The position numbers were made by a program, and so were the translations under genes. Positions 8,515 through 60,650 of a stretch of DNA of 64,000 nt are shown here, one piece after another (positions within the stretch are counted from its first letter, which is position 1; the number at the start of each line of letters is the position of its first letter). The DNA lies in assembly GCA_051362555.1 (NCBI GenBank), contig CM120649.1, forward strand, positions 18,862,567 through 18,926,566. The letters run 5' to 3'. The notes beneath the pieces are model-generated. The model searched no databases. It saw nothing but the letters and a program-made list of their open reading frames with translations, and had not been told where the DNA came from. The DNA is from Lingula anatina (taxonomy: Eukaryota; Animalia; Brachiopoda).

Positions 8515-8546
<32 letters not shown>

Positions 8547-14533: not shown

Positions 14534-15829
14534 TCTCGGACGAATTATGACGGATTTCGAACGTTGACGATGATAAAAAAGACACGAACAAGGACAAATG
14601 AAACATTTAATAGGAGAAATAAAATGTATAGGTAAACAGAGACAACAAGACGGACTGAAACCCATAAGAATACGGACAATGAACGGTAACATGGAGAACG
14701 CAAACTGCAATTTCACTTGTTTTATTTAACTAAAATGACTGTTTCTTGGTTCTTTATGGTTCAGATACTGTTTCCTTCAACTATGTTAATTGACTTTCAA
14801 TTACTGTGGAATAATTGGTCAGTTATTAATGCCAATGGGTTCTTTTTCATGCGATCATACTTATACATTTAATTATTTTAGTAATAGACAGGGTGCTTAT
14901 AGCAAATTATTTGGTAGGGCATAAATGTATGTGTCTGTGTAATCTTATTTTCCCATAACATATGTATTGCAATGTAGATTAAATTAGTATTCGCATTTGA
15001 TATATTACAGTGATTCAAATTAAAACATTTTTTCCAATTTTAATTTTAAAAACATCTTTGAACGGACAGAATAGTAATGGTAATGTTTGTGATATTTTGA
15101 GGCACTGTTTTCAAATTTGGAATTCTTCAAGTGAGCGAAATGATAGAAAATGGTGTATTTACCTTGGTATATGCATTTGTATTTATTAGATCTTAATCAG
15201 TTTACCTCTGCTGCATTCTGAACATTGTTTCTGTCCACCATATTTATATGGGATATTGATTAGAATGAATCTTTAGTTATTAGTTATAGCGAAAGACTGA
15301 TTTGTTTCCTGTTCCACATTATTTTACCAAGGCAGGGTGCTTATGTGTGTATTGTTACTGTGAAGACATATACGAGGTTGTGGTGGTATTTTTATTCAAA
15401 CGTAGACTTAATAATTGTTCTTCTGATATATAAGAGGGATTTAAATTTGAAACTTTTCATTGAAATGTAACAATCTTTAATGTGTGGAATATGTGTTACA
15501 TGTAAGTAAGAGGGTTAGAGAGACATTTTGAAGTTCTGTTTGCTTATTTCAAATATCTAAAATGATAAAAAAGATTGTGTATATTTATGAGGTCTAAATC
15601 ATTTCCTTCTTTTAGCTTTGCTTAATATTGAATAAAAGAGGTTAAAAAAAGCTGTTGACGACATTTTTATTCGAAAGGATATTATTGAAAAAGGGAAGCT
15701 ACAGCTATGTTACAATATAGGAAATGATAACTGCCCTTATTATCAACAGGAACCATGCAATGCGTGGGACATGGAAAGTGACCCTATCGGTGCTCTGATT
15801 TTTAAATTGACCACGAAAAGTCATGGCAA

Positions 15830-15867
<38 letters not shown>

Positions 15868-18812: not shown

Positions 18813-19874
18813 GTCGCACACAAATTAAAGGGATAATAACTCTTCGTTTCGGCAAAAAAAATGAATTTTCCTGGAGTAAACAACAATTTTCCCATACTTA
18901 CCAATGGTTAATGAATCCATTTTTACATTCAAAGTTAGTCCCTGTTTTTTTTCTACAAAGTTTGGTTTTTTGTTAAAATCTTTTAAGAGATTTTAACAGA
19001 GTATAGCCATCAATGGAGGTCACGTGGTCTAAAGACGAGCTCAGATATCAGAATAATAGCTATAACTGCTGTTTTGTGGTAAAACAGAATATATTATATT
19101 TCTATGAGTTATGCACAATGTTTTTATTGTGAAATGTAGATCTCATACGAAGAGTTACTATCCCTTTAAGCAAATTGTCTCGATTTATCGGAAAGACAAG
19201 GATATGAAATTGCTCCCGCTTTATTCAACAAATATTAATCAGGGTTTACGCTAAATAGCTGTCAGCCGAGCGGGAGCGAAAGTTAATTACCCCCTTACAG
19301 CTTGTAGTAGGCGGGACGGACATTGAAGCTGGATTATCTGACAGTAATCTAGTGAGACACCCCCCGGGGATAGATCGATCTAAAATCTATGGGAATCCAC
19401 CCATAGACACTGATGCACGTATGATATGTTAACCTCTTGTCTGATTGGCTGGATGGTACATGACAGAAAGCAACAATGCCGTGTGCTTATGTATTTATGA
19501 TATGTACAGTTTCTACCGTCAATTCACTGTTTATGTACTATGCGCACGGTGAGCCAGACAAAATTCTAACTTATGTGCCTTTACTAATACTAGTGTTAAA
19601 AGTGTTCATTCTTTAGATGGTGTAAATGACGCGTTTATTTTTATACTGACATCGTTATACATGTAATACATAACAAGAGGAGTTCGAATGATACAATGTT
19701 TTTTTTTCATGTACCATATTACTAAGATATACTCCTAGCTAATTATGTTTGAATATTCATTTCTGTTATTTACTTTTAAGAATTAACGGAGTTACATAGT
19801 TAATACTACATTTGTATTATATTATATTTTCATATTTGTCACTTTAAGTGATCATCTGAATTACATTTCAGAGA

Positions 19875-22796: not shown

Positions 22797-23571
22797 AAAC
22801 ATCTAAAATGTTGAATGGCAATATGCAGTTTGTATTCAGAGACTACAGGCACATAAATAAAGCTTTTAAGTTATTAAAATAATGGATTTGGATGTCAGTG
22901 AGATATATCAGTGAAAAAAGCGTTGAATTGGATCTGATAGTTTGATGATTTGCCGGACACAATTGTTTCATATACATAAAGGAAGAAAAAAACAAACATT
23001 TCTTTTGATACAATTTTTCAGCCCGCTTACAAACAATTCATTAAAGCATCAAATATTGACTTTTTTCTTTAGATGACATTTACATTGGATTACATTGTAG
23101 CATATTACCTTGATAAATCTGAGGTATAGCTGTTTAAAGCGTACACATTTAATCATGAATACAGCACAGCATTCGTCTGCTCCACCTTCAACTATCACAG
23201 GTGTACGAGTTTTTTGGGGTAAGGTCCTTTGGTGTTTAATTATTATTTCATGTTTATTATTGATGTCATATACATAATGTACATACATGCACATCACTTA
23301 ACATCTTAAGCTGGATTAAGCCTACATGAAACATTACGGGACTACATTCTGCTTTACTTTAATATGTAGGGGACATAAGCAAGAAATCGCTTGATTGCGC
23401 CTTTGTTCGTTTGTTATACATGTACAGTTTATATATAGTAAGGACGAGGGGTAACCTTCGTTAAACATTATATTTTATTTGTTTATTTATTATTTTATTT
23501 ATTTATATATTTATTGTGAATTGGGGAGAGGGCATGTGCCAGATGTGTTAGCTGTGCTAGGACTTAGGCTA

Positions 23572-23612
<41 letters not shown>

Positions 23613-24266
23613 TTTTTTTTTTTTGCATCCTAATGCCCTTTTGATTAATAGACCACAAATATTAAAATCGATCTATCCCCCTGGGTAGTCTCACTAGATT
23701 GCTGTCAGCCTGACCGACTTAAAAGTCTGTCCCACCTACTAAAAGCTGTAAGGGTGTAATTAACTTTTGTGCGCGCTCGGCTCTCGGAAGCTGACAGCAA
23801 TTTATTTGTTTTGACATCTGGACAATGCACACCGTTCTCCTGTTTCCTTTCTTGAAAAATAAGGGGACTTAACGAATATACATGATATCTACTGTTCAAA
23901 ATTACTGTCTCTCTGTAAGGTGATATAATGGCATTGAATCGTTCACATTTGTCAGCCTGATGTTTTTTAAACATTGTTAAAGAATAATTTATTGGGAAAA
24001 TAGGGGGATGGCGTGTTGCTGATTTAGGTGTCAATTCACGGTGAGTCAGACTTCTTATCAAATAAATTTTTGGAAAAAAAGAAAAAAAACTATTCAACGC
24101 CAAGGATAAAATACAATGGACTCAAAATCTATTCGTATTAATTACAGGAAACAGAAAAACATACTGCCAGCATCTGTCAAATCAAGCGTGCACGGCATTT
24201 GTATTACGTTGTACTTTCATATTAAAACTATCGCTTAAAACGATCATTTGAATTACATTGCAGAGA

Positions 24267-25443
24267 ATGGCTGGTCATCTTGTTGCTGTAATTGTACTTG
24301 TAACTGTTCTTTTGTCAGAGAGAAGCGAAGAAGTTTGTTGTCACAGTTCGTATTTTTATCATGAACTTTGCCTTGATTGTAGCAAGGTAAGTTTAACTGA
24401 TACTATGATGCCCCTGTTCCACACCAACCACGAATTCCACGAACCGCCAGGGGTTGATACATTTTAGAAATCGTGAGGTATCTTGGGATTTTGCACATTT
24501 CTGGTAGAAATCTTGTCTCTGCTTGGGCTTCACTGCAAAATGGATGTTCAACATAGAGCACCTATAGTACTTGTCCTACATGTAGAACTGGAGTATGAAC
24601 ATCAACTGGCGTTAAATAGAAATCTGGGTCGAAGTTTTTGAGTCGATTTGACGATCTCTCAAGAATTGCATGAAATGAATGAGAAAAGAGAAGAATCAGT
24701 TAAGAACTTTAAAAATTATCACGTTTTAACCAAGAATCCTGGGATTTATGGATTCTTGGCTGTTCGTGGAATTCGTAGTCGGTGAGGAATAGGGGCATTA
24801 TACATAAACCATATGGTTCATTCCCAATGAAACTATCGTTCTACGTACTTTGATCTAACGCTGCGGGGACCCCTGCTGAATGCACTCGGATTAGCTGATA
24901 AACACGTCGGGGATCATGTTATCCTGCTTGTCCGCGAGTCGATGTGTCTGAGCTTTTGTGATTTCAGTCATTTCTTCCTAGATCATTAGATGTAGGAAGT
25001 TCAAACTTTGGGGATTGATTAGGGGATGTACACGAACATTTCAAAATTTTAGTGCAACAGAGAGCTGGTCTGCCCCTTGTGTGGTCGATTCTTTATTATT
25101 TTCACATAGTAATTTCTGTGTACTCCCCCTAGACCATAAGAGTAAGAAACTTGAAACTTTAGTGATTGATAGACCTGTCATCAGGGATGTGCATGGACAT
25201 GTCATAATTTTAATTTCTGGAGGTTGGGCTAGCCCTGGGCGATGGTCGATTCTAATTTTTCTCACGTTGTGTTTTCTGCTAATTCCTTGGCCATTACATT
25301 GAACATTTGAATTTTTAAAAGACCTTTCATCAGGTATGTGTTTAGGATTTTCAACCCATCGGACACTACCATTTGGACACTATTAACATTGTGGATATGA
25401 AAAATGGAGCAGTTCTGAAATAGTTGAGGTGTGCGACCTCGTA

Positions 25444-25488
<45 letters not shown>

Positions 25489-26649
25489 TTAACTGGAATT
25501 TTGAAATCAAATCTTTTGAGAGTCTTATTTGTTACTGCAGCTCGACGGTGAGTATTGTGGAAAGGGGAGCTGCAACATTTTTGGTTGTGCCTGCGTAGGA
25601 GGATGCAAAGAAGACTGTTCGCCTGCAATGGTTATGCTGCCGTAAGATATTATGTATATTGTATGCTATTATATTCGACATGTCATATTCTAATTTAGGT
25701 TGATATTATACTTAAACTATCCTGCTGTCCAGGAAAGTGAGAACATCGGTAACGATTCGTCGTCAGATTTTAATTTGAACTCTGTTAAATGAACCCCATA
25801 GACTGATTCCATCATAACGTTTATTTAACGCAGGATTGTGTATTATTGACAACTATGATTAAATTTGTGCAACTAAAATGGCCTTTTTCAAAATGCCCTT
25901 TATCACAATTAATGCGTGGCATTTATTTCAAACACCAAATGTATCATTTCAGAGGGCAAACAAGATCGGTTTGCAAATGTCAAAACAAGCGTGCCCTTGC
26001 AGACAATGCTGATGAAACTGATGCGGGTGAAGTTTTTAGTGAAACTCACAAATAGGCGAGGAGACTAGATTCTGGATGTATTGAAAGGCAAGGATGAGGA
26101 ATTGTCTCTTTCCAAAAATATTCGGAAAAGGCGCAACCCATTTATTTTGTATTTCATTTTGTGTGTGTTTGTGGGAGATCCTGTGGTGGGAATGGGGGTG
26201 AGGGCAGTGTAAAGATTTATAGTGTCCATATGTTCGTTTCTTCCTAGTGCACACTACAAGAGGGTTTGCGTTTGGGTATACTTGTACTTTAAAAATCCTT
26301 TTACATAACATTTAAGGCCCCAGATATGAAAATCAGTTAGCCCTATTGAAGAACACAACGTTAGCTTATATAGAATGCGGAACTGTGTATTGCATAATTA
26401 CTGTAGATTACTGTACAAGAAATAGTAGAACATGTTGGGATTAGTTTGCTCAGTACTTAATAATTATGCAACAAGTGCTATAACAATGGTGTACTTTCAG
26501 AGATTGATGACGTCATATCCATTGCTGTTTTTACAGAAGCTACAGAAACACACCATAGTGCCCAAGACGACGTCAGGGTTGGAAAATACTTAAAAGTGTG
26601 GAATTGCAATATGCAGATTTTATTCAGAGTGAACATGAATAAAGCATAA
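24267..26649 (+). CDS. Mytimycin/Diedel-like 12-Cys secreted peptide precursor B (exons 24267-24386, 25541-25641, 25953-26026, 26501-26649; 147 aa)
   Basis: Same exon phases as A. Reads MAGHLVAVIVLVTVLLSERSEE-VCCHSSYFYHELCLDCSKLDGEYCGKGSCNIFGCACVGGCKEDCSPAMVMLPGQTRSVCKCQN-KR-ALADNADETDAEIDDVISIAVFTEATETHHSAQDDVRVGKYLKVWNCNMQILFRVNMNKA*. Confidence 0.85.
24409..24797. mobile_element. Old Harbinger-like MITE in intron 1 of peptide gene B
   Basis: tgcccctgttccacaccaaccacgaattccacgaacc ... gttcgtggaattcgtagtcggtgaggaataggggca. It sits at the same position as in gene A, so it predates the duplication. Confidence 0.65.
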
Positions 26650-27729
26650 TAATGAATTTAAATGTTAGGGAGATAAATGAATGAATAAAACATTAAATCG
26701 GATCTATGATTTATGATTTGTGGGACGCGGTTGTTAGAGAAAGCTTAACATATCTATTAATTATTCATTTCCATTTTTTTCAATAAAACTGTTTGAAAAC
26801 AAAGTGGAGCATATCAATATTTTATGTTTTGTACACGTTAATTTCAAAACAACCTGATATTTTAAACGATATCACATGCAAGAACATGTTATCAACTTCA
26901 AATGAGTTGATAAAGTTGTCACAATCGTTAGCTATGAGTAAGAACAGATAGCATAGGAGCTAAGAGTAGAAATTTTGCATTGATTCGGAGGGTGAGGTCA
27001 ATTGAATACCGCTATTAAGACAACTAAAATGAAAGTCTTTTTATCCTGTGATTGGGTTAAAATTACCATATATAAATTACATAACTTTTAATCATACATA
27101 TCCATAATTTCTGTTTATTATGCAAACAAGTATTACATTTTCTGAAAACAACTTTTCAGCTACTGTTCTTACCATTGTTTTATCATTGGCATTTGTAAAA
27201 AAATACTATATTTCGTTCACAAAATCGATGAGATGTACGTTTACTGTGATTACATGCAACAAAAAAGAGGAGTTGAATCTCGATATGATGGAAGGTTTTT
27301 GTATTTGAGGCCCTCGCCCACACAAACCCAAGTCCAACAGAGAAACATCCAAACCCAAAGTTTTACAAGGGGTCGAGAAAATATATATAGCATCGTCAAG
27401 GATAATTACTTTAAAAATGATTGCCTTGCTGTGATGCACATTAACGTTAAAGTCGATTAAACTCTAGACACGAAAAAATTAATTTAGTGCCGGGGGTGAA
27501 AAATGACCTCCACCCACCCTGCGGCCACATGCTTACACTTTAAGAAAGAAACACCCGAAACAGCCACAAAAACATTTCCTTTGATACAATTTTACAGCGC
27601 TCTTACAAACAATTCATTAAGGTATCAAAGACTGACTTTTTTCTTGGGATGACATTTACATTGGGTTACATTGTAGCACGTTACCTTGATAAACCTGCGG
27701 TATAACTGTTTGAAGTGTATATATATTAA

Positions 27730-31287: not shown

Positions 31288-32604
31288 TTACATGTGCATC
31301 ACATAGAACTGGGTATAATCAGTTGGACTTATTGTCAAATTTTTAAATACAACATGGAGCGGCAGGGCTAAGCTGAGCTTTTTGTCGTTTCCAAAAGGAA
31401 TATCCCCTCCAACAATCATTGCTAAGGCTTGCCTATTCCTTACATCTTCATGTCTGGTTGTTATAATGGATCCACTATCGCCTGCTTTCGAGAAAGCATT
31501 GTCACTGCCGTCTGCCTCAAAGGCCATAAAGGTGAATGGTCCATGCAATATGTCTTGCTCTCCAAAACCATGAAGTTTCATTTTAGTACGAAATTTTGCA
31601 TTAAATAATTTTCCAAATGTTGTCTTTGTCCCAGCTCCAGACTTTTGTACTTCGAGACCATGCTCAGTGAAGACACGTATATTGCATGGGATCAATTCGT
31701 GGACAAGAGCTTCATTTGTTATTTTAACACAAGTAACATCAACAAAGTACGAACTATTGTCCACGTCGGACCACTCTTTATACGTACTTGAATGGACTTC
31801 TCCAACTATTTTAGGTGATTCATTTTCTATACAAAATACATGTAATGGTGACTCGGTTTCAGATACACGTGCACTCAAAAGCACATCCAGACAATGGCAA
31901 CACGTGATACCATAGCATTCCCTTCCAAAACCAAAACATAAAAATCCTCCCATGGTGCCTGACCTTGGAGAAGTCACCTCTGCATACCCTTGTGCGTGAA
32001 GCTTCATTAATCCGTCTTGGCCCTCAGGTAGCTCATATAACTCAAAATTTAAACTACCCCTTTTCAGTTTCCCAAGTTCTCTTTCCACTTCATTTTTCTT
32101 ACCGTAAAGAACATTTGCATGCGCAATGTTGTCTACGTCGTCATACCAATAGCTGCTTACATCAGGACATCTGAAATAAAACAGCGAGCTTTTATCCGTC
32201 TGCACATTACACATGTTTATACTTTTTTGACACTGACAGAATAGAAATTTACTTATTTTATTAACACTCAGCGTAATAGGAAACTGAAAAAAGAAACACA
32301 GAGTTATAGGGTTTGGTAACAAGTAAATGAAAGGTGAGTCTAACGTGTCTAGGTATTTTGTGACATCAGTGGGAATGTCAAGTGTTGGTTCCGATTTCAT
32401 TCCCATGAGGGTCTTGACTGATGCAACTGGGGGTTCCGATTTCATTTCCATGAGGGTCTTGACTGATGCAACTGGGGGTTCCGATTTCATTTCCATGAGG
32501 GTCTTGACTGATGCAACTGGGGGTTCCGATTTCATTTCCATGAGGGTCTTGACTGATGCAACTGCCCCCTGGGCATCGGTAGCACTGATCTGATTTTGTT
32601 CTCC
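31288..32604 (-). CDS. Terminal exons (32604-32345 and 32170-31288) encoding a 15-aa repeat region and a Nal1/Ssy5-like trypsin-fold serine protease
   Basis: Motifs GTMGGF...YGITCCHCL (His), FVDVTCVKI (Asp), VQKSGAGTKTTFG, FSKAGDSGSII (Ser), ALAMIVGG and LALPL. There is no signal peptide or IVGG activation N-terminus. A phase-2 GT-AG intron at 32344-32171 happens to be open in frame, which is why the ORF track merges the two exons. Confidence 0.8.
   Translation of the reverse strand, partial: GEQNQISATDAQGAVASVKTLMEMKSEPPVASVKTLMEMKSEPPVASVKTLMEMKSEPPVASVKTLMGMKSEPTLDIPTDVTKYLDTLDSPFIYLLPNPITLCFFFQFPITLSVNKISKFLFCQCQKSINMCNVQTDKSSLFYFRCPDVSSYWYDDVDNIAHANVLYGKKNEVERELGKLKRGSLNFELYELPEGQDGLMKLHAQGYAEVTSPRSGTMGGFLCFGFGRECYGITCCHCLDVLLSARVSETESPLHVFCIENESPKIVGEVHSSTYKEWSDVDNSSYFVDVTCVKITNEALVHELIPCNIRVFTEHGLEVQKSGAGTKTTFGKLFNAKFRTKMKLHGFGEQDILHGPFTFMAFEADGSDNAFSKAGDSGSIITTRHEDVRNRQALAMIVGGDIPFGNDKKLSLALPLHVVFKNLTISPTDYTQFYVMHM
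32387..32564. repeat. 45-bp coding minisatellite, ~4 units (KTLMEMKSEPPVASV on the - strand)
   Basis: ggttccgatttcatttccatgagggtcttgactgatgcaactggg is repeated almost perfectly. Confidence 0.95.
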
Positions 32605-34166: not shown

Positions 34167-35432
34167 CACACACAAACACACACATATGAAAATTCGTGCA
34201 CATTTCGGCTGTATTAGCTCTCAAATGCAGCTCGAATGTAGTTGGAAAACTAGGAATAACGATAATGCTGTCAGAATGCAGTCTGACTATTTAGAATACA
34301 CTTCAAATGGCGTACGAGTTTAGTTCAATTGCTGGCTGAAATATGATTTCGGCAGCCATCGAGATGCATTCGAGTTGCATTCCGACTCATTTTAGCAGGA
34401 TTTGAAGTGTCTTGCCCTTTCAGTTCTCCCTCGAACGACATTCTTGCTCATTCCACCTCTAATGTGACGGGGCCTTCGGAGAGACAATTCTTTGTAAGTT
34501 CCTAGATATTCGAAGTGCATTCTAAACTTTATGAGTGCATTCCAAAAATTTTTACCCATGCTTGTGGCCGGCCCGAATATTTTGCTCATGCTCAAAATTT
34601 TCGAATTGCATTCCAAGCGGAGAAATATCGATTGGCATGGTAATTGTATTTTAACTGCACTATGAGTGCATTCTAAATATTCTTAGGGCATTCCAACAGC
34701 ATTCGAAACATTCTGATTGCTTTCGAGGGAAAACTGAAAGACACTTGTAGACACTTGTAGTTGGAAGTTGTTATCTGCGTTCGTTTCATACTGTTGTTTT
34801 AAAACTAAACAGAATCTTCCTGGCGAGCTTCATCGAAAGAAAGAACCTACGCGTTATAAAAGATAATCTAAAGCGGTAATGGTGTTGTGGAGGTGTAGCC
34901 GTGGACAACATGGGTCGGGACTAAAACCATGCGTACCGCCAGCGCTCACGCTGGTGGCACTATTAGCATTAACCCCAAAGGATCTGTAAGCCACATTAGA
35001 TAGAAACAAAGTCTCTTACTTACCTTACTGCTTATTGAAGGTGGGATTGGTACAGGTATATCTGAAATTTAATTATATTGTTTTAGTCGGAGCATAAGAT
35101 CCAATTATTTTTATAAAATTTCAACAAGCTATAACCCAAATCAAAGGCTGGTATTTCTATTGCCGTGAACGTGATAAGTCAATGATGAAAAAATGTCTGG
35201 GTGAAGGGCAAGGCAGTCCCAATTAAAAAAAAATGGTCACAGTTGAGTTTGGGTAGGTAAATTTTATGCCAAATGGGTTTCAAACTTTCATCAAATAAAC
35301 CTTCCTTGTTTCTCTTACAATTTAGGTTTATGAGATTCGACGTTATGATTCGTCTACGGATTGAAATCACTTTCTGATCTGAAGAAATCTTTTCGACAGA
35401 TAACTTCCACGTGCGTTAAAACTTTATACAAC

Positions 35433-39030: not shown

Positions 39031-39590
39031 AATTCCACAGTATCCTCCCACTATTAAAAGAAAAAAACGATATTTAAAATAATTTAATAAAAATATACGA
39101 CACATAAGGTCTATAGGTATAAGAATGTAAGCTAATGAAAAAAAACGGTTATATTTTGCATTAACCACTAATTTTCATTACTTTTAGCTTACGCTGCATT
39201 TTTGTGTGTCACTTAGATATTTGTGTAGTATTTACGTTTGGATTTGAATTTCTAATGGATTTTAGAATAACGCAGCAATAGATTATGATCAACGTTTCAA
39301 TTAGTATTCCGCCTCCTGATAGACCAAGCGCAGCTTCAGACGCCATGCCACTGAAGACGTTTTGATGGGTTTAACTGACCGAGTTGACAACAGGGTGCTT
39401 GATATATATATATATATATACATATAATACACATACGTATGGGAAATATCTGCGTTTTAATAACTATTTTTGCATATGTTTCGTTTTGTTTTGTAGCTCG
39501 TACTTTGGTAATTCAGAGAAAGACTGTTCGTACATGTGGCTGTTACAAACTGAAAAGGATCGCTTTTCGTTTCTTTACTTATACTAGTAA

Positions 39591-41895
39591 TGCCCCTATT
39601 TCACACAGATCACGAATCCCACGAATGGCCATGAATTGACAAATTTCACGATTCGTGTTTGAATCGTAATCAGTTCGTGAAGTTCTTAACAGATTCGTAT
39701 ATATTCGTAGTCATTTCTTGCACTTCTTGACCAACAGGAATGGGTGGCAAAAACTTTGATGCCCCTATTTCACACAGACCACGAATCCCACGAATCGCCA
39801 GGAATTGAAAATTTGGTTGAATCGTAATCAGTTCGTGAAGTTCTTAACAGATTCGTATATAATCACAACTATGTCTCTTTTTGCTGATGACTCAAAGATG
39901 CAAAGATTAATTAGTTCTTTGGCTGATTGTTTGGCCCTCCAGGAGGATCTTGAGAGGGTAGTAGGTGGTGTAATAGGTGGGGAATGAAATTGAATGCAAA
40001 AAAATGTATGCTGTTAAGTGTCACGCGGAAGGTCAATCCAACTGTATTTTATTATAACATCTTTGGACATGTATTGATAAAGGTACATGACGTAAGGGAT
40101 TTAGGAGTTACCGTTAGCAGTGAGTTGACTTTTAATTCACTTATAAATAACTTTGTTAAGAGTGCAAATCAGACATGGGCAACTATTAGGCGAGTGTTTG
40201 ACAGAAATAGGAACCCAAGGTTAATGCAGCCTCTTTTTGATTCGTTAGTACGTTCAAAGCTTGAGTTTAATTCTGTATCTTGGGATCACATTACAAAAGA
40301 AAATTTAATAAAACTAGAAAGAGTGCAGCGAACTGCCACAAGACATATTCTGGGTAACCAAATGAATTATAAAGACAGACTGGTTGCTTTAAACTTGCTG
40401 CCTTTAGCTTATAGAAGAGAAATTTTAGACGTTACCTTCCTGCATAGTTGTTTTATTGGCAGGGCTGACCTTGATCATACGAAGTATTTGTATTTTAGAG
40501 AAAGATGGGGAGATCGTTTTATCATCCACAGTGCCAACTTCTGTAGAACCGAAACGTTTTGCCGGTCTTTTTTCAATCGCGTTGTTCCCATCTGGAACGC
40601 CCTTCCCATTTGCACACGTTCAGGGGTTGGCAGATCAATGTTTAGACGATCCGTCAGAGAGCACAATAGTACTCTTCTGGTGGAGCGCTTTGACCCCGCG
40701 AACGTTTGCACTTGGGTGGGTCGTTGCAGATGTACACATTGTCGTTTTTAGATGTACACATTGTCGTTTTTAGTACTAAAGTAGAGTTTTTATTTTTTAT
40801 CATTTGTATATCATTGGGGGTGTCCATTCATGGGTCATTGACCCCTTAGGCAAACCCTTTTGTGTACAATCTTATTTTGCATTATTTTAAAGTGACGTCG
40901 TACTATTAGTTGTAAGTTGTTTTATTATGCTCTTTTAAAAATCTTGTATATAATCTTGTACCCAATAAAGTCATTCAAATCAAAAATAATCGTAGTAAGT
41001 TCTTGCAATTCTTGATCAATCGGGAATTCGTGGCAAAAATTTTGAGCTGTTCATAGTTTTGGCCACGAACTCCCGATTCCAAAAAATTGTAATGACTTTC
41101 TGGACAATATTCGTGCGATTCCAGCCGAATCCCACGAATATTCGTAACACTATCGTAAGTACCTGTATCGTAAGTGAATCGTGAGCGTGTCGAATAAGAC
41201 CAGAAAATTGGCAAAATCTCACGCAAAATCCTAAAAGTTGGCAAAATCCTAAATGTTGTCAATTCCTGGCGATTCGTGGGATTCGTGGTCTGTGTGAAAT
41301 AGGGGCCTAATGCCCCTATTTCACACAGACCACGAATCCCACGAATGGCCATGAATTGACAAATTTCACGATTCGTGGTTGAATCGTAATCACTTCGTGA
41401 AGTTCTTAACAGAATCGGATATATTCGTATTTAGTTCTTGCACTTCTTGACCAACAGGAATTGGGGGCAAAAACTTTGATGCCCCTATTTCACACAGACC
41501 ACGAATCCCACGAATCGCCAGGAATTGAAAATTTCAGGATTCGTGGTTAAATCGTAATCAGGTCGTGAAGTACTTAACAGATTCGTATATAATCGTAGTC
41601 AGTTCTTGCAATTTTTGATCAATCGGGAATTCGTGCCCAAAATTTTGAGCTGTTCAAAGTTCTGGCCACGAACTCCCGATTCCAAAAAGTCGTAGTGAAT
41701 TTCTGGACAATATTCGCGCGATTTCAGCCGAATCCCACGAATATTCGTAACACTATCGCACCTGTATCGTAACTGAATCGTGAGCGTGTCAAATTAGACC
41801 AGAAAATTGGCAAAATCTCACGAATCCTCACGAATCCTGAAATTTGTCAATTCCTGGCGATTCGTTGGATTCGTGGTCTGTGTGAAATAGGGGCC
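39591..41895. mobile_element. Head-to-tail dimer of a PIF/Harbinger-like MITE (39591-41307 and 41311-41895)
   Basis: TIR (T/G)GCCCCTATTTCACACAGACCACGAATCCCACGAAT. The units are separated by one TAA, and each carries a duplicated left arm. The outer flanks are TAA (left) and TTA (right). Confidence 0.9.
39865..40985 (+). mobile_element. 5'-truncated CR1-clade LINE (RT C-terminal half) inserted in the MITE
   Basis: SLFADDSK RT motif, then a frameshift, then MKLNAKKC...RDLGV...SLVRSKLEF...LERVQRTATR...SFFNRVVPIWNALP. AATAAA at ~40964. ATAATC is duplicated on both sides, and the empty site is visible in the second MITE unit. Confidence 0.9.
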
Positions 41896-42137
41896 TTAGG
41901 TGCACTTTTACGCTGTAAGGTACACCAGTTGCTATATTACCAATTGTGCGGTTTTCAACACTGGAACTGGGGAATTTTGTAGTGGCCTCGTCTCCTCGTC
42001 CGTACTTTATGTCATACCCACTGTCAATATTGCCTTCACTCGCTTTCCAAAACAGTGACATTGCTTTCACAGAGGTGTTTTCTTTGGTAACTTGCCCAGG
42101 ATCACATGGCTCTGGAAGTAAAACACGTGAAAGACTA
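41896..42137 (-). CDS. FN3 exon 3 of the ANK-TIR-FN3 gene, truncated by the MITE
   Basis: Phase-1 acceptor (exon starts at 42137 or 42111). Reads PCDPGQVTKENTSVKAMSLFWKASEGNIDSGYDIKY...IGNIATGVPYSVKVHL, then runs directly into the MITE TIR. Confidence 0.65.
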
Positions 42138-42339: not shown

Positions 42340-42729
42340 GTGTCACCTGTGTACTTTGTTGTGGTACGCTAGGATAACCATTAGCTATCGCAAAAATTCG
42401 GATTTCATACTTTGTGTCAGGGAGAAGATTTTCTATATTGCACTCGTTTTGCACAGTTTCAATCTTATCATATCTAGCATCCAATATTTGGAATTCATCG
42501 TGATCAATTTCTTCTTGAGTTTGTGCCGATCCTGGCTCACTACTGTGAATTTCATATTGACGTCGTATCTGCTGCATGCCTGCACTGTCTTGACTGTTAA
42601 TGTCTGCATCTCGAACAATTCTGTACATTATGGCATAACTGTGAACAGCACCTGGAGCTGGCATCCAGCGCAAGTATAAACTATTTGTACTTGCTACGCT
42701 ATGTACAATGGTACCAGGCATTGGTGGTG
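42340..42729 (-). CDS. FN3 exon 2 (with a long acidic loop insertion)
   Basis: Phase 1-1, GT-AG. Reads APPMPG...NSLYLRWMPAPGAVHSYAIMYR...IENLLPDTKYEIRIFA, carrying the FN3 W...Y...L.P.T.Y signature. Confidence 0.85.
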
Positions 42730-42927: not shown

Positions 42928-43215
42928 CTGTATAAGCCACGCACGTGACAGCTTCACTTTTTTGTCCATTGTGTAAAATAGTTGAAATACTGCAGTTGTA
43001 TGCAGTCCCGGACTCTAATCCATATATTTCGGCAGTTCGTCCGCTGCACTCGACACTCAATAGATTGTGATGAGCTTCCTGGGCATAGTATGTTATTTCA
43101 AAGTGATCAATATTTTGACGTATTTGCAAGTCCCACTCCAGTTTAACTGACGTAAGTTGTCTTTTCTTGTTCGCCTGTGACCATGTCTGTTTGAAATATG
43201 TGGGTGCTGATGAAT
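42928..43215 (-). CDS. FN3 exon 1
   Basis: Phase 1-1, GT-AG. Reads TSVKLEW...IDHFEITY...AEIYGLESGTAYNCSIST...KSEAV. Confidence 0.85.
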
Positions 43216-45274: not shown

Positions 45275-45675
45275 CTTTAATGATATGTAAAAGCTTTGAC
45301 ATCAACGCCTCATCATCAAATCGGATTTGTTTCATCCCTCTGAGTTCTGCAGGGATTTCCTCAGCTGACATATTCATTACAACTGGAATGAGGACATCCC
45401 TTTTCCACTCTTTGGCTTTTTGCATGACATACTGCAGCTGTAGTTGACACCACTGACTTTGGACAAAACTCTTGGACAAGAATACTACAGTATGTTTGGA
45501 TGCCGTGATCGCCTCACAGATCGAATGGATTGCATATGTTCCAGGAATGAAGTCTTTGGCGTACCAACGTTGAACTCCGTGTTCCTTAAGCTGGTGTAGA
45601 ACTGGTTCTATCGCGGTCTCATCTTCGTCACTGCACGCAATGAACACGTCGTAGCGGTGTAGATCCAAAGGCAAA
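45275..45675 (-). CDS. TIR domain exon
   Basis: Phase 2-1, GT-AG. Box-1 YDVFIACSDED, BB loop KDFIPG, then AITASKHTVVFLSKSFVQSQWC, LIPVV and IPAELR. Confidence 0.9.
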
Positions 45676-45902: not shown

Positions 45903-46044
45903 CTAGCATTCTTTTGATTACGGATGGTTGAACATGAGTATATGTTACTAGCAGTGACCAGGGTTTTCAAAAATTCTTGAAATTCATTGGGGGCCTTGTG
46001 TGAAATTTTTGTCACCACCTTTGCATAATAGTCCACTGCCGCCT
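45903..46044 (-). CDS. Linker exon preceding the TIR
   Basis: Phase 1-2, matching both neighbours. Reads AAVDYYAKVVTKISHKAPNEFQEFLKTLVTASNIYSCSTIRNQKNA. Confidence 0.7.
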
Positions 46045-47694: not shown

Positions 47695-47911
47695 TTGAAA
47701 GTCGTGGAAGGTTTACAGCCTGTAGTTTGGTTCCAAAGTCTCTTATATTTGTACACTTGGTCTTGTTGGACCATTCTTTTAAGTCCTGTATTTTTTGTAA
47801 TTGGGAGACGAGGGAAAAGTCCGAGCTCATGTTGGTCGGTTTAATGGTGGTATATTCATCAGAAGCTAATATTTCAGCAAGGTGCTCAAAAGTCCTGCTT
47901 TGAATATATTC
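47695..47911 (-). CDS. Exon encoding a helical, weakly death-fold-like region
   Basis: Phase 0-1, open, with a ttttacag acceptor and gtaagt donor. Reads EYIQSRTFEHLAEILASDEYTTIKPTNMSSDFSLVSQLQKIQDLKEWSNKTKCTNIRDFGTKLQAVNLPRLS. The pattern LA..L...L.EW...L..V.L..L resembles death domains; the domain call is an inference. Confidence 0.65.
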
Positions 47912-54232: not shown

Positions 54233-54322
54233 CTGTATATCTGGCATTTCTAAACGTCTCAGCAGTTCTCCTATGGCGATGTGCTTCTTCTTTTCTGCCA
54301 CCATTCTTGGCGTCTTTCCACA
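54233..54322 (-). CDS. C-capping ankyrin exon
   Basis: Phase 0-0. Reads CGKTPRMVAEKKKHIAIGELLRRLEMPDIQ. Confidence 0.75.
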
Positions 54323-55120
54323 CTGTTATTGAAAGGCATATAAAAGTAGTAAGGAATCAGGCTGGGGGTTCTTAAAAAAAGATGACCCTGAGAACCTGTG
54401 TTAACGTGACATCACATAGGGTTTCTATGGAAATATTTCTTAGTAGCTCATCGATTTTGTTTGTTTGTCTACATCCACTTTCGGTGTAATTTTGTTGTGT
54501 AAGATTTTTAATTGTTTTTCAAATCCCTACGGCCAACTTGTGTTCTTATGCCATTTTTACCAAAAAATAAATAAATAAATAAATAATAATAATAAATAAA
54601 TTAAAATAGTAAAAAAAAATTAAAAAAAAATAAATAATAATAAATTAATTAATAGATAAATAAAACATATGGATGAAAATGTTAAGTTAGCATATCAGTC
54701 GCGTCGCATCTTATATAGATAATAGTGCGCTTGCACTAAAGTTTGTTCTAGTGTATTATTGAGTTGTATACAAACAGAAAAGTTAAGACACCCAGTGGAC
54801 AAAGCCCGAAATACTATTTGATCGCTTAAGCGCCCTTGTATTCGATTGCAAACAGTCTTATCAAATATTTCTTTGTGTCTAAAACTGGCAGCCCAGGGAA
54901 GACGTCCCGCCCTCTCTATGGATATTTAACATCAATATCATTAATGCCATAGAAACACTATTTCTGCACATGAAGAGAATAAATCATTATTAAATTAAAT
55001 GAATAATCAGTTTACAGAAAATGTACTTGTTAATCTTACATAATTCATTTTTACAAAATGCGGGAAACATATATAGCACATAAGTGTATCCTCATTGTGA
55101 TTTGACTATTGTACATTCAC

Positions 55121-55219
55121 CTTATCCTGTATATTGGTATTCGCCCCGTGTTGGAGGAGAAGCTGGACACATGCCGTATGGCCGCCATCAGCAGCCCAGT
55201 GAAGTGGTGCCCATCCAGA
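55121..55219 (-). CDS. Single-ankyrin-repeat exon (99 bp)
   Basis: [33 protein letters not shown], with AG/GT boundaries. Confidence 0.9.
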
Positions 55220-55377
55220 CTGTGAATGTGTAAAATAAAAACGATTAAATATGTAAATTCATTACCCGAAATATTTTCATTTCAATACAGGCTTTGGAAT
55301 AATCAGTAATACTAAAACTTGTAAATCTGGCTGAATTTCTTCCCGTAATTTGTAGACAATAAGGTGTGTTGACTTTT

Positions 55378-55473
55378 CTACATTAAATCGGTATCTGCCC
55401 CGTGTTGGAGGAGAAGATGGACACATTCCTTGCGGCCGTTACAGGCAGCCCAGTGCAATGGTGTGAAATAACC
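55378..55473 (-). pseudogene. Ankyrin exon copy that has lost its splice donor
   Basis: Reads [31 protein letters not shown]. Compared with sister exons, the last codons plus GTGA are deleted, so the frame reads into a TAG. Confidence 0.7.
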
Positions 55474-55766
55474 CTGTCACATGGTATATAGGGTATTTAA
55501 AGTATGTACAAACATTATACGATTAAAATGAGAAAGTAAAATGATCCAGCAAAAGTAGAACAAACACGTTTTTATATGTTCCTTTGGATTTGTACATCAA
55601 ACATACGTGTAGATAATCCACGTCGAAGAAACATTTGTTTCAATACATGCTTTAAAATAATCAGTTATAAAAAAGGAGAAAGATCATTCAGCAGAAAAAT
55701 GTTAACCTCGAAGAATCTTTACCCATAACTGCCAAACATGATGTGTTTAGACCTCTTTACACCCAC

Positions 55767-55865
55767 CTCGTCCTGTATTTTGGTATCCGCCCCGTGTTGA
55801 AGGAGAAGCTGGACACATGCCGTATGGCCGTCACGGGCAGCCCAGTGAAGTGGTGTGCTCCCGTC
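55767..55865 (-). CDS. Single-ankyrin-repeat exon (99 bp)
   Basis: [33 protein letters not shown]. Confidence 0.9.
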
Positions 55866-56668
55866 CTGTGGATGTGTACAAACAAACCGATTTAACAGAG
55901 ATAATTCATGCCAAAGTAGCATATTTAATTCCTTTAAAGGTTATTGTAACCCTTTATTATCATCCAGATACCGAAAATGTTTTTTCTTCTATCTAATTAA
56001 TCAACAATGCCCCTTTCTTTGTGCTGACTAAAACAATAAAAATAAGCTCGAAAATATTTTAATTTTATATTTCATCCCTGCAATGTATAGGCATAAGCAA
56101 CTCAAAGCTTGATTTGTCAATTTAACGCCTTTTTATTTTGGGGGGAGATTACAATCGATAAGTGGCGTATTAGTAATTTCATCCCTATAAAGTTTTATCT
56201 CCAATATCGACATTTTGGTTTTAAAGTTTTGTTATGGAGTTATGAGCTCCTTATTACACTGAGGAAAGACATTGTTTTGCTTTATTAATGATAAAATCTG
56301 AACCAAGACTTTAAAGAAAAACCTCTGGCAAGGTTTTGGAGTTCTAAATGCTGTCATTCAATCGGCATTGAAAGAGTGATCGCGGGTACTAAAGGTAAAA
56401 GAGAAATTTGAGACACCAATTTTTCTGTTTTTTTTTTGTTTTTGCCCCAAAATCGCAATTATAACGTCACCCATAAGACATACCCAAATGTTAATCAATT
56501 TAGTCGCCGAACACTGAAGATTTATCTATTAACCAAAAAAATGTATGTAAGGCAGTAAATAATGGGTTTTGGGCAAAGGGTGACAATATCCGTAACATGG
56601 AGAAAATTGGAGCTTCCCGTAAATGTGCATTTAACCATATGTACGTATTCACACTATTCTACACTCGC

Positions 56669-56773
56669 CTCATCCTGTATAGGCCTATTAGTATCCGCCC
56701 CGTGTTGGAGGAGAAGCCGGACGCATTCTGTATGGCATTTACCTGCAGCCAAGTGAAGTGGTGTCCACCCAAA
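56669..56773 (-). CDS. Single-ankyrin-repeat exon (105 bp, GC donor)
   Basis: [35 protein letters not shown], with donor GAG|GCGAGT and an in-frame 6-bp insertion. Confidence 0.7.
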
Positions 56774-56983
56774 CTGCAGGTTTGTAGAAACGATGTGATT
56801 TTTTTTTTGTTATCATAACTATTTAATATATTTTTATTCGTGTTTCACTTTTAAATGCTCGACTAATATTAAAATTTCTCAAAATTTTTGTACACAATCT
56901 ATGTTTATGGGACCTTGGGGCTGGAGGGTCGATACATACTATTAATATTACGGAAAATGTGGCTCACTGCATTACTGTATATA

Positions 56984-58643
56984 CAGACTTGACATTTAAT
57001 ATGGAATATTTTTTTCCAAATAATTTTTCATCAGTTTTTTCCTATTTTGCTGACTGATAAATGAAAATAAGGCTTAAAATTGGGTTTTAATAACTTTTAA
57101 TTATCCTTTTGATGTCATTGTGTCTTCAGTTCATTAATGGAATTCGCCAGAGAAGCAAACAAAAACACATTGCCTATTCTATGTCATACGACAACAATTA
57201 AAAGAGATATTTTGGATCTCCACATTTTCCAAATTATTTTCTGTAAAAGAGTTACACGCCTCACAAAGAACCCCCATGTCAGTGTCTAGTCACAGTAACG
57301 GTCGCTGTTACGCTTGACCTCTTCTGTCTGCTACCAGGGCTCTCAAGGGGCAAGGCATTCCTTGGGTTAGGTTTTTAGAGTTAAATCTGGAATAACATTC
57401 CAGGCATCGGTCAAAATCTGTCCAATTTGGTCCAGTTTTGTTGTAGGACATGTAGGCCATTGATTCGGCGAGTAATGGCCTACCCACATATTGTCTATGT
57501 GGTTCAAATGTGGCGATTTTGATTACCAAGGTAGCTGCTCATTCCCTTGGTTCTGTAAGTAATCTGCTTTTAAAAGTGCTCTGTGTGTACCGGCAATTTC
57601 ACCGTGCAACCTAAAATTGTTCCTAAGGTGCCCCCTGTCAAATGATTGTCAAGTGGTTCCCAGATTATTCCTTTATTTGATCTGGTTCAGGTTTTCGTGG
57701 ATGACCATCATTGGTGTTTTGGCACCAATGTGGTATCCGCTCCAATTACCGACGCTGTTAATGAACTTAGTCACTTTAAACGCGGCACACGCTTAGTTGT
57801 TGGCCTCTTCTGGATGTCTGTAAATTCTGTTTTGACAAGTTGAGAGGCATAGGTGAAAACTGACCTCAATAAAGAAAGCCACGACTTTTCAGTGTTCAAC
57901 TCAGAAACAGTCAAGGTCCCCAATTCATTAGAGAAACATACAGCGATGTTTTGCTGTTTACAGTGGGTTCCCCCGAGGTCGTCTGGTATTCTAACCAGCT
58001 AAAACCAGTTTGGTGTTCTCTAAGGGCCTTGAAAAATGCGTTTTGGTGGCAATTTACCCCTCATTCTGAACGGACTGGGTGGTTTTTGTTTAGTTGCAAC
58101 AACATATCCCGACAGACAGTACGTCCTGTACCCTGGTGGTAAGATTTCAATACATTGGGTGTGGTCTCTGTGTAGGTGCATCAGTCTGGACATTACTCTA
58201 TTAAACTGTGCGGACCGTTTCGTTTGGCGCAATTATCTGTCTGACAATGCCTGGCTTTTTCGAGCCATTCTGCCACAGATTAACAAATTTGCGGAGCAGT
58301 GCATAGCTCATTTTACACCTTGCAAAACTGACCACTTGCATGCCAAATTTCAAATTCATCTATGCAGTAGTTACCGACATATGGATACTTTTTTGGAAGA
58401 ACCATGCTTTGCCAAAGCCAAGCTTTGACCTGCCCAAAGGAGCACTACCCAATTAAATCACTGCATATTACATAATGCAGCAGCGCAACAAACCTGGAAT
58501 TCAGTGAATTGGAAGTGACACACCTGACTACACACTTCTCCATTCACATATCTTATATGAGATCTGAGTTTTTGAAAAAAGGATGCATTTTTACCAGGGC
58601 ATACCTTCTAAACTGAAATATTCCATATTAAATGTCAAGTCTG
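56984..58643 (-). mobile_element. Full-length but decayed Tc1/mariner element (1.66 kb)
   Basis: TIR CAGACTTGACATTTAATATGGAATATTT at both ends with TA flanks. Degenerate transposase on the - strand: GAKTPMMVIHENLN, THRALLKADYLQNQG, LPW*SKSPHLNHIDNMW, DAWNVIP, NLTQGMP..LRALVADRRG. Confidence 0.85.
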
Positions 58644-58804
58644 TATATTTACAAACAACATGATTAAACTGAGATAATTTATGTTGACAAATAAGTATAT
58701 TTTCTTGCAGGTTTTGAAAAAAATTTAGTCTTGAATTAAATCAAAGTAGGGGATCAGAGAGGCGATACCGCCTCCGGGTATCGTACCACCAGCTGGAGTA
58801 AGCG

Positions 58805-59697
58805 CATTTGTATGGACAGGGACACCACCTCCACTTTTGTGCTTGACAAGCTCTACAAAAAGCAGTAAATGAAGGTTCTCAATATTTTTGTTGGATATTA
58901 CCATTAAAAACAAAACCATAGGGAAAAGTAAAAGAAAAGTAAAAAGTTTTTAAAAAAATGGCAAAGGTCAGTTCATGATGAAAAGTAGGTCAAAGGTCAA
59001 TGTGAGGGTCACAGACTTCCTATTCAAGTTCAATAGATCTGTGGGTATATCTTTGCTGGTTTTTGAGATATAACGGATAGAAAAGTTCCAAAGTTCAGCC
59101 CATGGTGAAAAGTAGGTCAATTGCCAAACTAAGGTTTAAACTAAATATTAAGGTCATATTTAGATAGCCAGTATATGACTTTCCATTCAAGTTCGATAGT
59201 AACTCTGGGCGTATCTCTATCAAATTTGGAGATATACCTGAAAGGGACTAAAATGTTCCAAAGTTCAGTTCATGGTGAAAAGTAGATCAAATGTAAATTT
59301 GAAGGCCACAGTTAGATTGTCAGTGTATTATTTCCTATTCAACTTCAACAGTAGCTATGGCCCTATCTCTTCCAGTTTTAAAATGTTGCAATTTTAGAGT
59401 GACAGTTATGTGCCATACATTTCATACAGAAGAACTTAATTGAAATAAAGAAAATGTCATTTTGGTTGATATTCATGAAATGGGAGGTGCTCAGAAATTC
59501 TAGGTGTTCGAATTTCATGAAATAATGTCATTTTTGACCATTTTTGACCATTTTTTTGGGCATATTACCGTATTGCACATTTTGCTTTTACCACCACAAT
59601 GTACTTTTTGATACAGTGTAACTCGTAAACCGTATGGAAAACAAAAAACGGACACCACCTTCAGTGTTGGGCTTGACATGCTCTATCAAAAGCAAAA
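58805..59697. repeat. Repeat element with ~50-bp terminal direct repeats and three internal subrepeats (Helentron-like/satellite-associated)
   Basis: ggacaccacct...gcttgaca.gctcta..aaaagca at ~58820 and ~59650. The internal unit catggtgaaaagtaggtcaa...ttcctattcaagttcaatag occurs three times. Confidence 0.55.
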
Positions 59698-59702
59698 TAA
59701 AA

Positions 59703-60093
59703 AAACAAGAGGTCTCTAGCATTAGCGGTTCCAGAATTAGAGACAGTTTTCAGTTTCGGCATCTACATGTAGTGGCCGCTGCTCCCGTGAAAATGCACCT
59801 GTTGACCCCCCCCAAAACTCACGGAGATGAAAGAGGACCCTAATGGTAACGCCTGCCAATAATATTATAGGTGGGGTCTGTGCAGTTTCTGAATATCGGC
59901 GCATCGACGAAGCCCACATTTTACGTGGATTGAGTTGAGATTATACGTGACCTAAAACCAAAAGATGGGTACGAAGGCCCTTGTAGTCTAGGAGGAGAAG
60001 CGGTAACAGTGACGTGGCGCCGGAGCCGACGGAACGGATGGGTCGGTACTAAAACCATGTGTACCGCCAGCGTCTACGCTGGAGGTACAATAA
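59703..60093 (+). mobile_element. Helentron/HINE-like element
   Basis: Begins aaacaagagg and ends with the hairpin gtaccgccagcg-tcta-cgctggaggtac. Its 3' end is shared with ~34870-34960. Confidence 0.5.
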
Positions 60094-60212
60094 TCAATTA
60101 TCATATCTTGTTAATTTGGCATAGTTTCTTGTAGTAAATGACGGAATTTGTAGCTTAGTTTTAAAACCTGTACATGTAACCATATTGCTTTGTCAAAATA
60201 TTCTACACTCAC

Positions 60213-60311
60213 CGCAGTCTGTTTATTGATATCCGCACCATGTTGGAGGAGAAGCTGGACACTTTGTGTGTTGCCAAAGGAAGCAGCATAGTGAAGTGGT
60301 GTCCATTCAGA
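60213..60311 (-). CDS. Single-ankyrin-repeat exon (99 bp)
   Basis: [33 protein letters not shown]. Confidence 0.9.
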
Positions 60312-60551
60312 CTGTGAATGTACATGTATAAAATAAGTGAAATTTAATATGATAATTCATGTTGTCAAAATATGTTTATTTCTATACAGGCTTTGAAATT
60401 ATCACCAATTAACTCAAACATAACTGATCATCATATATTGTACATTTTGCACAATTTCTTCAAATGAATTGCTGAAAGTGCAGTGTTGCGTACATGTACA
60501 TGTAAGTGTGCATGTAACCATGCTGATGTACTTAAACTATTCTACATTCAC

Positions 60552-60650
60552 CTCAGTTTGTATGCTGATATCCGCCCGGTGTTGGAGGAGAAGCTGGACA
60601 CAATGTGTGTGGCTGTTACGGGCAGCCCAGTGAAGTGGCGTGCTCCCGTC
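60552..60650 (-). CDS. Single-ankyrin-repeat exon (99 bp); the most 5' coding exon recognised
   Basis: [33 protein letters not shown]. Confidence 0.9.

What the first reader, a model, noticed from the sequence alone, without database searches (positions are those of the whole stretch)
54233..60650. One-repeat-per-exon ankyrin cassette array under active birth and death
Seen: six paralogous phase 0-0 exons of ~99 bp plus a cap exon, with homologous flanking intron sequence (60312-60400 vs 55220-55310; 60651-60680 vs 55866-55897). The scaffold [10 protein letters not shown] is nearly constant. Variation concentrates just before TPLH (DGS/SEW/FGW/GYF/SGW) and after it (WAARN/YAASF/LAAGK/WAARD/WAACN/WAADG). 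One exon has a GC donor and one has lost its donor. Established: these positions form the ankyrin binding surface randomised in DARPins, and symmetric exons can be skipped without frameshift. Inference: a combinatorial recognition module diversified by exon duplication and possibly alternative splicing.
Basis: partly seen in the sequence, partly recalled or inferred. Interest (0 to 1): 0.7.

Follow-up and report, generated by a model that had tools for sequence, protein, structure and literature searches.

The report
Shuffled ankyrin exons in brachiopod sensor
A gene of what is likely a lamp-shell (brachiopod) builds a predicted binding surface from duplicated one-repeat exons that vary mainly at contact positions and sit in front of immune-type signalling domains, likely a natural library of intracellular sensors like those known in brown algae and fungi.

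Summary
Observation confirmed and extended. Five intact phase 0-0 ankyrin exons (one with a GC donor), one exon whose donor is deleted, a seventh relic and a C-cap exon lie on the minus strand, with homologous intron flanks. They are the front of a larger frame-consistent gene: ANK array, death-like helical domain, TIR (presumed catalytic Glu replaced by Gln), three FN3 (one interrupted by transposons) and a Nal1/S64-like protease; the TIR-to-FN3 link is inferred. All close relatives are Lingula anatina gene models: 15 ANK-death-like-TIR-clade and 3 ANK-Death, with about 1-14 near-identical scaffolds. Amino-acid change concentrates at DARPin-type positions (omega 2.3 versus 0.54; p=0.018 against 1, fragile). 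Exon skipping was not shown at this locus: the one RNA lay was swamped by intronic transposons. Two of 16 paralog clusters hold RefSeq isoforms differing by whole repeats, possibly mis-mapping artefacts. It works like brown-algal exon-shuffled ROCO/NB-ARC-TPR and fungal ANK-NLR receptors but lacks their NTPase; I found no description of this family in 10 paper searches. The scan noted a similar one-repeat-per-exon ankyrin array in another genome.

The parts
60552..60650 (-). ANK exon E1 ([12 protein letters not shown]), phase 0-0
60213..60311 (-). ANK exon E2 (SEW-TPLH-YAASF), phase 0-0
56979..58648 (.). Transposon with perfect 33-nt terminal inverted repeats and a decayed transposase-like interior (Tc1-like, label recalled) in the E2-E3 intron
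   Evidence: very high DNA depth
56669..56773 (-). ANK exon E3 (FGW-TPLH-LAAGK), 105 nt, GC donor
55767..55865 (-). ANK exon E4 ([12 protein letters not shown]), closest to E1 at binding codons and upstream flank
55375..55473 (-). Dead ANK exon E5 (GYF-TPLH-WAACN): donor deleted, stop if read on
   Evidence: same form in a contig of run X2
55121..55219 (-). ANK exon E6 (SGW-APLH-WAADG), phase 0-0
54870..54914 (-). Relic seventh ANK exon (frameshifted 5' half, AG acceptor kept)
   Evidence: D9; 63% to E1, shuffle p 0.005
54233..54322 (-). C-cap exon, phase 0-0
   Evidence: 61-63% identical to paralog caps
47695..47911 (-). Death-like helical domain, exon 1 (phase 0-1)
   Evidence: hhalign 72%, E 3e-5 to the Death domain of the sister ANK-Death family
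45903..46044 (-). Death-like domain exon 2 and linker (phase 1-2)
45275..45675 (-). TIR exon (phase 2-1); Gln where 5 of the closest paralogs have the presumed catalytic Glu
42928..43215 (-). FN3 exon 1 (phase 1-1); link to TIR inferred from phase
42340..42729 (-). FN3 exon 2 (phase 1-1)
39534..42111 (-). FN3 exon 3 (phase 1-1) split by a ~2.3-kb nested insertion (~41895-39591: inverted-repeat elements plus a LINE fragment)
35024..35061 (-). 38-nt linker exon (phase 1-0), inferred
31288..32604 (-). 438-codon terminal frame: four 15-aa repeats then a Nal1/S64-like trypsin-fold protease with TCCHC, VDVT and GDSGS motifs
61571..61707 (-). Candidate upstream exon (137 nt, one open frame ending in phase 0); not an N-cap; unproven
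   Evidence: low minus-strand RNA depth in its bin

Best explanation
The array is the variable, predicted target-binding end of a likely cytosolic sensor gene (ankyrin repeats, death-like domain, TIR, and likely FN3 and a protease) of a Lingula-type gene family, and it diversifies by duplication and loss of whole one-repeat exons with amino-acid change concentrated at the predicted contact positions. Shown: exon anatomy, shared flanks, dead and relic exons, repeat-number spread among paralogs, excess change at contact codons. Inferred: unequal crossing-over between homologous flanks adds or removes 99-nt cassettes in frame; the fixed scaffold lets any repeat stack on any other; target binding would cluster the death-like/TIR module, and in this paralog a grafted protease would replace TIR NADase activity as output. 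Skipping of cassettes likely adds some isoforms but is secondary to germline diversification.
For: Exons and flanks. E1~E4 (pN at contact codons 0.07, upstream flank 70%) and E2~E6 (upstream flank 67-71%) fit a block duplication. 13 exons from E1 to the protease chain in phase, with AG/GT(GC) ends and no internal stop, 1127 codons. Relatives: all 3 of 3 TIR hits and the top 13 of 731 whole-protein hits are Lingula anatina models; about 1-14 scaffolds per model; 7 models share one 212,496-nt contig. Pairwise difference in 48 family repeats: 0.78 at DARPin-type positions, 0.30 at other non-core positions, against medians 0.90 and 0.80 in 42 control ankyrin proteins, 0 of 42 below 0.35. 79 distinct five-residue contact words in 83 repeats; nearest neighbour in the same gene 28% against 8% expected. 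Window exons: pN 0.485 at six contact codons against 0.15 elsewhere (permutation p 0.00075; 0.015 among non-core columns); fixed-site codon model omega 2.3 against 0.54, p 1.4e-5; omega>1 p 0.018.
Against: omega>1 is fragile: p 0.093 with the other published position set, counting bootstrap 0.80-2.34, six sequences, and four-fold sites (41 of 182) differ less than intron flanks (266 of 754), so dS may be depressed. No N-cap/ATG exon found in the window. FN3-3 is broken, E1 has Gly>Arg in the scaffold, TIR lacks the Glu: the locus may be decaying. No junction read links any two exons; no paralog model ends in FN3-protease (they end in a coiled coil, not found in the window). Immune function is inferred from domains only. 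The one DNA run laid shows the same E5 lesion, so no between-individual change was seen.
Confidence: 0.6

Rival explanations
1. Combinatorial splicing is the main diversifier: each cell skips cassettes (31 non-empty subsets of five exons), with the GC donor tuning E3, giving a Dscam-like somatic repertoire.
For: All cassettes are phase 0-0. RefSeq isoform pairs in paralogs differ by whole repeats: P0122 vs P0007 by three repeats; P0123 vs P0008 each lack repeats the other has. Splicing of repeat exons is reported for brown-algal ROCO (PMC11378527, section read) and NLRP3 (PMC6642158, listing).
Against: Only 2 of 16 paralog clusters looked up show such isoforms. In both pairs the exons before the alternative junction end in the same or nearly the same residues, so short-read mis-mapping could create the models. 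No cassette junction among the 15 joints shown (150 not shown). Uneven RNA depth over exons tracks uneven DNA depth, i.e. paralog reads.
Confidence: 0.2
2. The locus is a decaying paralog; contact positions vary only because they are the least constrained ankyrin positions, and the dead exons are ordinary pseudogenisation.
For: Dead E5, relic E7, broken FN3-3, TIR Glu>Gln, no start exon in the window, transposon-rich introns. Contact positions are also highly variable in control ankyrins (0.90). Locus-specific expression is not shown (most laid reads 90-95% alike).
Against: 1127 codons in 13 exons without a stop or phase break; both lesions hit symmetric, skippable exons; omega 0.54 outside contact codons and invariant scaffold columns; the same pattern holds in each of 11 paralog models with three or more repeats.
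Confidence: 0.15
3. The ANK-death-like-TIR gene ends shortly after TIR, and the FN3-protease exons belong to a separate neighbouring gene (concerns the architecture only).
For: All paralog models with a TIR end within about 60 residues after it; the TIR 'longer' search gave no FN3-bearing protein among 94 candidates; no RNA was laid on this part.
Against: The paralogs' terminal coiled-coil exon is absent from the window; TIR donor and FN3-1 acceptor are both phase 1 and 2 kb apart; no separate first exon was recognised by reading the interval.
Confidence: 0.3

Closest known systems
Brown-algal LRR-ROCO and NB-ARC-TPR candidate receptors (PMC3341825 abstract; PMC11378527 abstract and discussion section)
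   Same: One repeat per exon, same phase, exon birth and death, diversifying change on the binding face, proposed splicing of repeat exons.
   Different: Ankyrin rather than LRR/TPR; no ROC-COR or NB-ARC; animal death-like and TIR output; far shorter arrays; splicing not shown here.
Fungal NLRs with internally conserved ANK repeats, and Tuber nank genes (PMC4986451, passages)
   Same: Ankyrin sensor with homogeneous scaffold, repeat-number variation and diversifying selection.
   Different: No NACHT/NB-ARC; repeats 62-84% alike in DNA, below the 85% protein criterion's spirit; nank diversifies by codon-sized microexons, here whole-repeat exons.
DARPin and ANK-N5C synthetic libraries (PMC8683736, PMC4308713, passages; PDB DARPins)
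   Same: Caps plus self-compatible 33-aa modules with a fixed framework and variable beta-turn/helix-1 positions.
   Different: Natural; position 33 of the synthetic numbering (exon codon 31) is constant here, while position 10 and the conserved Gly at 4 vary.
Lingula anatina RefSeq ANK-TIR and ANK-Death gene models (P0001-P0013, P0019, P0021, P0122-P0125, P0129)
   Same: Same scaffold, cap, death-like region and TIR (69-70% in TIR).
   Different: Carry only generic automatic names; end in a coiled coil, not FN3-protease; closest ones keep the TIR Glu.
BCAP/BANK1 TIR-DBB-ankyrin adaptors and platyhelminth ANK-caspases (first recalled; second PMC11463336, passages)
   Same: Ankyrins joined to TIR or to a protease in animal signalling.
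   Different: Different domain order, no DBB or caspase hit in the exons scanned, no expanding exon array described.

Membership tests
Ankyrin repeat (PF00023) | 33-aa TPLH...GAD repeat above Pfam cut-off | tested here: met
   E1, E2, E3, E4, E6 score 44-46 bits, cut-off 21.1
Exon-shuffled repeat receptors (brown-algal ROCO / NB-ARC-TPR) | One repeat per exon, one phase | tested here: met
Exon-shuffled repeat receptors (brown-algal ROCO / NB-ARC-TPR) | Exon birth and death, variable repeat number among paralogs | tested here: met
Exon-shuffled repeat receptors (brown-algal ROCO / NB-ARC-TPR) | Diversifying selection on the binding face | tested here: inconclusive
   enrichment clear; omega>1 p 0.018 or 0.093 by position set
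Exon-shuffled repeat receptors (brown-algal ROCO / NB-ARC-TPR) | Alternative splicing of repeat exons | tested here: inconclusive
   swamped by transposon reads; paralog isoform models
Exon-shuffled repeat receptors (brown-algal ROCO / NB-ARC-TPR) | ROC-COR or NB-ARC NTPase core | tested here: not met
   no such Pfam family in the window exons or paralogs
Fungal ANK-NLR / nank | NACHT or NB-ARC domain | tested here: not met
Dscam-type mutually exclusive array | One-of-many exon choice with docking/selector pairing | not tested
   paralog models include many repeats at once, which speaks against one-of-many; no RNA-pairing analysis run
Death domain (PF00531) | Six-helix death fold / Pfam match | tested here: inconclusive
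   no Pfam Death hit; hhalign 72% over 53 columns, reversed control 0.3%; six helices in the model of paralog P0002; Foldseek rows shown were TIR-bearing structures; Atlas no usable hit
Enzymatic (NADase) TIR | Catalytic Glu in the alphaC helix (position recalled) | tested here: not met
   WCQLQL in the window against WCQLEL/WCQQEL in P0001, P0002, P0003, P0019, P0125
Nal1 / S64-like trypsin-fold serine protease | His, Asp, Ser motifs in trypsin order and family match | tested here: inconclusive
   motifs present; Pfam S64 E 0.015 and Nal1_C E 0.051, below cut-off; Atlas 0.97 to Nal1_C/trypsin clusters; no HMMER or PDB relative; model pLDDT 34

The most novel reading that the evidence does not exclude
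Brachiopods carry a natural DARPin library: a family of cytosolic ankyrin sensors whose one-repeat exons are both reshuffled in the germline and skipped combinatorially in cells, wired to interchangeable outputs (Death, TIR, and here a Nal1-like protease), an animal counterpart of NLRs without an NTPase.
Probability: 0.25. Interest if true: 0.78.

Novelty: new variant of a known kind. Interest (0 to 1): 0.52.

Why it matters
How invertebrates diversify intracellular recognition without adaptive immunity is open. This family gives a testable animal case where a fixed ankyrin framework with variable contact residues, the design that engineers chose for DARPins, evolved by exon-cassette turnover. 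Isoform counts, haplotype exon numbers and binding partners can all be measured directly, and the natural contact-residue choices may inform binder design.

Tried and rejected
No whole genome was held, so copy number and the region beyond 64000 were not examined. RNA/DNA lay on 54720-62900 (3 RNA runs, 1 DNA run, 90% likeness): tables were filled by intronic transposon reads; no cassette junction could be read, and the cap, TIR, FN3 and protease exons were not covered by any lay. Higher RNA depth over E1 and E6 was rejected as evidence of skipping because DNA depth is about tenfold higher in the same bins. An apparent frameshift in the death-like exon on first reading was my misreading; the frame is open. 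Protease: no relative among 1.84 billion representatives, none in PDB, single-sequence fold unusable. A wider structural search for the death fold did not run. Search for further isoforms of the ANK-Death locus found none beyond X3/X4. N-cap exon and paralog terminal exon not found in the window. No complex prediction was run: no partner is known. In one search the pooled set kept 48 repeats that fit a strict pattern; irregular repeats (e.g. about five in P0129) were dropped; one search used 83 with a looser pattern.
Full report
What is there. On the minus strand lie six paralogous ankyrin exons and a cap exon. E1 60650-60552, E2 60311-60213, E4 55865-55767 and E6 55219-55121 are 99 nt with AG/GT ends. 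E3 56773-56669 is 105 nt with a GC donor. E5 begins at 55473 and has lost its last codons and donor by a deletion of about 13 nt. All are phase 0-0. The five intact exons pass Pfam Ank. A frameshifted seventh copy lies at about 54914-54870 (63% to E1, above 200 shuffles). Exon pairs are 62-84% identical. E1 and E4 share their contact codons (pN 0.07) and upstream flank (70%); E2 and E6 share upstream flank. This fits duplication of a two-exon block. A 1.67-kb element with perfect 33-nt inverted ends sits between E2 and E3.

The gene. Downstream exons continue in frame: a two-exon helical domain, TIR (Pfam TIR_2 E 2e-20), two intact FN3 exons, a third FN3 exon split by a nested 2.3-kb insertion, a 38-nt linker and a 438-codon terminal frame. 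Leaving out the broken symmetric exons (E5, FN3-3), 13 exons chain in phase with no internal stop (1127 codons). This chain is inferred from splice signals and phase; no junction read supports it. The helical domain aligns with the Pfam-positive Death domain of a sister ANK-Death family (hhalign 72%, E 3e-5, 53 columns; reversed control 0.3%) but has no Pfam Death hit; a model of paralog P0002 shows six helices there, and the Foldseek rows shown were TIR-bearing structures. The TIR has Gln where five close paralogs have Glu in WCxxEL (the catalytic role of this Glu is recalled). The terminal domain has TCCHC, VDVT and GDSGS in trypsin order, sub-threshold Pfam S64 and Nal1_C hits and Atlas scores of 0.97 to a mollusc-rich unnamed cluster and a Nal1_C/trypsin cluster; HMMER found no relative and the fold failed. 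The N-cap exon that starts paralogs was not found in the window; it may lie beyond 64000.

The family. The TIR exon finds 3 proteins among 94 candidates, all Lingula anatina, 69-70% identical. A paralog query ranks 13 Lingula models first among 731 hits. With this gives 15 models of the ANK-death-like-TIR clade (some lacking ANK or TIR) and 3 ANK-Death models; seven share one 212,496-nt contig. The host is therefore inferred to be a lingulid brachiopod. The window TIR groups with the family (100/99) without a one-to-one partner. Scaffold counts run from about 1 to 14 per model. Paralog TIR models end in a short coiled coil, which is absent from the window, so FN3-protease looks like a graft in this paralog.

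Variation. Position sets were fixed from outside: classical DARPin positions 2, 3, 5, 13, 14, 33 (recalled; variable columns visible in PDB DARPins) and ANK-N5C positions 2, 3, 5, 10, 13, 33 (PMC4308713, passages). In the six exons pN is 0.485 at the six DARPin codons and 0.15 elsewhere (permutation p 0.00075; 0.015 among 19 non-core columns); pN/pS is 1.47 with bootstrap 0.80-2.34. My fixed-site codon model gives omega 2.30 against 0.54 (p 1.4e-5), omega>1 at p 0.018; with the ANK-N5C set 1.83 and p 0.093. Four-fold sites differ at 41 of 182 and aligned intron flanks at 266 of 754, so synonymous constraint or conversion of the scaffold may inflate omega. Across 48 family repeats, difference is 0.78 at contact positions and 0.30 at other non-core positions, whereas 42 control ankyrin proteins have medians 0.90 and 0.80 and none falls below 0.35. 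What is unusual is thus the frozen framework, not the variable face alone. 79 of 83 repeats have distinct contact words, and nearest neighbours lie in the same gene 28% of the time against 8% by chance: in-gene birth plus family-wide sharing.

Splicing and individuals. One lay of three RNA runs and one DNA run on 54720-62900 was dominated by transposon reads; none of the 15 joints shown (150 hidden) joins ankyrin exons. Reads at least 90% alike cover the exon bins, in the two stranded runs with first mates on + over E1 and E6 (RNA from the minus strand), but DNA depth is about ten times higher in the same bins, so these are probably paralog reads. A 503-nt contig of run X2 spans E6 and the E5 lesion with 2 differences; others span the E3 donor and E2. 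The lesion is therefore in public DNA, although X2 may not be independent of the window. In paralogs, 2 of 16 clusters looked up hold RefSeq isoforms differing by whole repeats: three repeats, or different repeats in each isoform. Both are automatic models and the exons before the alternative junctions end alike, so mis-mapping is possible.

Mechanism. Shown: symmetric cassettes with homologous flanks, cassette death, repeat-number spread, contact-biased change. Inferred: unequal crossing-over adds or removes cassettes in frame; a constant framework keeps any combination foldable; binding clusters the death-like/TIR module; here a protease may be the output because the TIR is likely non-enzymatic. 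Immune function rests on domain content and analogy.

Comparison and novelty. [quoted passage not shown] It is not a member of these families: no NTPase. Exon-based repeat expansion in general is known (PMC1553488, passages), and 99-nt exons in vertebrate ankyrin genes are recalled as common, so the exon geometry alone is ordinary. Lineage-specific expansions of death-fold and repeat proteins in sessile marine animals, brachiopods included, are known (PMC8195603, passages). Ten searches (four named Lingula, brachiopods or lophotrochozoans) listed no paper describing this family; subscription papers on Lingula immune and TIR genes (recalled, not seen) and supplements were not checked and may list the ANK-TIR architecture. 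The scan's notes hold a comparable array in a microbial eukaryote (e1-9963259), not checked here.

Verdict. Real feature; new variant of a known kind; interest 0.52. Germline cassette turnover is well supported, positive selection moderately, combinatorial splicing remains open.

Noticed in passing
window 1-16700 (+ strand exons 1-366, 6604-7342, 13788-14533): Three tandem copies, about 7 kb apart and 77-80% identical, of a gene without a Pfam hit; its GICADFNGNP motif recalls von Willebrand D domains (recalled, untested).
   Followed up: partly
window 19800-26700: Two-copy segmental duplication (about 4 kb offset, 79-82% identical); content not examined.
   Followed up: no
window 39591-41895: Nested inverted-repeat elements (Harbinger-like, label recalled) with a LINE fragment (39954-40751) inside FN3 exon 3; the exon is symmetric and could be skipped in frame.
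   Followed up: partly
window 32387-32564: Four 99%-identical 45-nt coding repeats (PVASVKTLMEMKSEP) just ahead of the protease domain, in a 438-codon frame that reads through intron-like sequence.
   Followed up: partly
window 58642-58683: A copy of the pre-exon intron flank abuts the transposon in the E2-E3 intron; possibly the trace of another lost cassette.
   Followed up: no
window 61571-61753: Candidate 137-nt exon with low minus-strand RNA depth in three runs, preceded by an inverted 26-nt copy of the pre-E1 flank (73%).
   Followed up: partly
window 63156-64000: LINE-like reverse-transcriptase tail fragment upstream of the array (label from reading, no Pfam hit).
   Followed up: no
P0129 N-terminus vs window 55187-55143: The first residues of a paralog model resemble an ankyrin exon read in another frame (WRPYG), suggesting a model artefact or a recycled cassette.
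   Followed up: no
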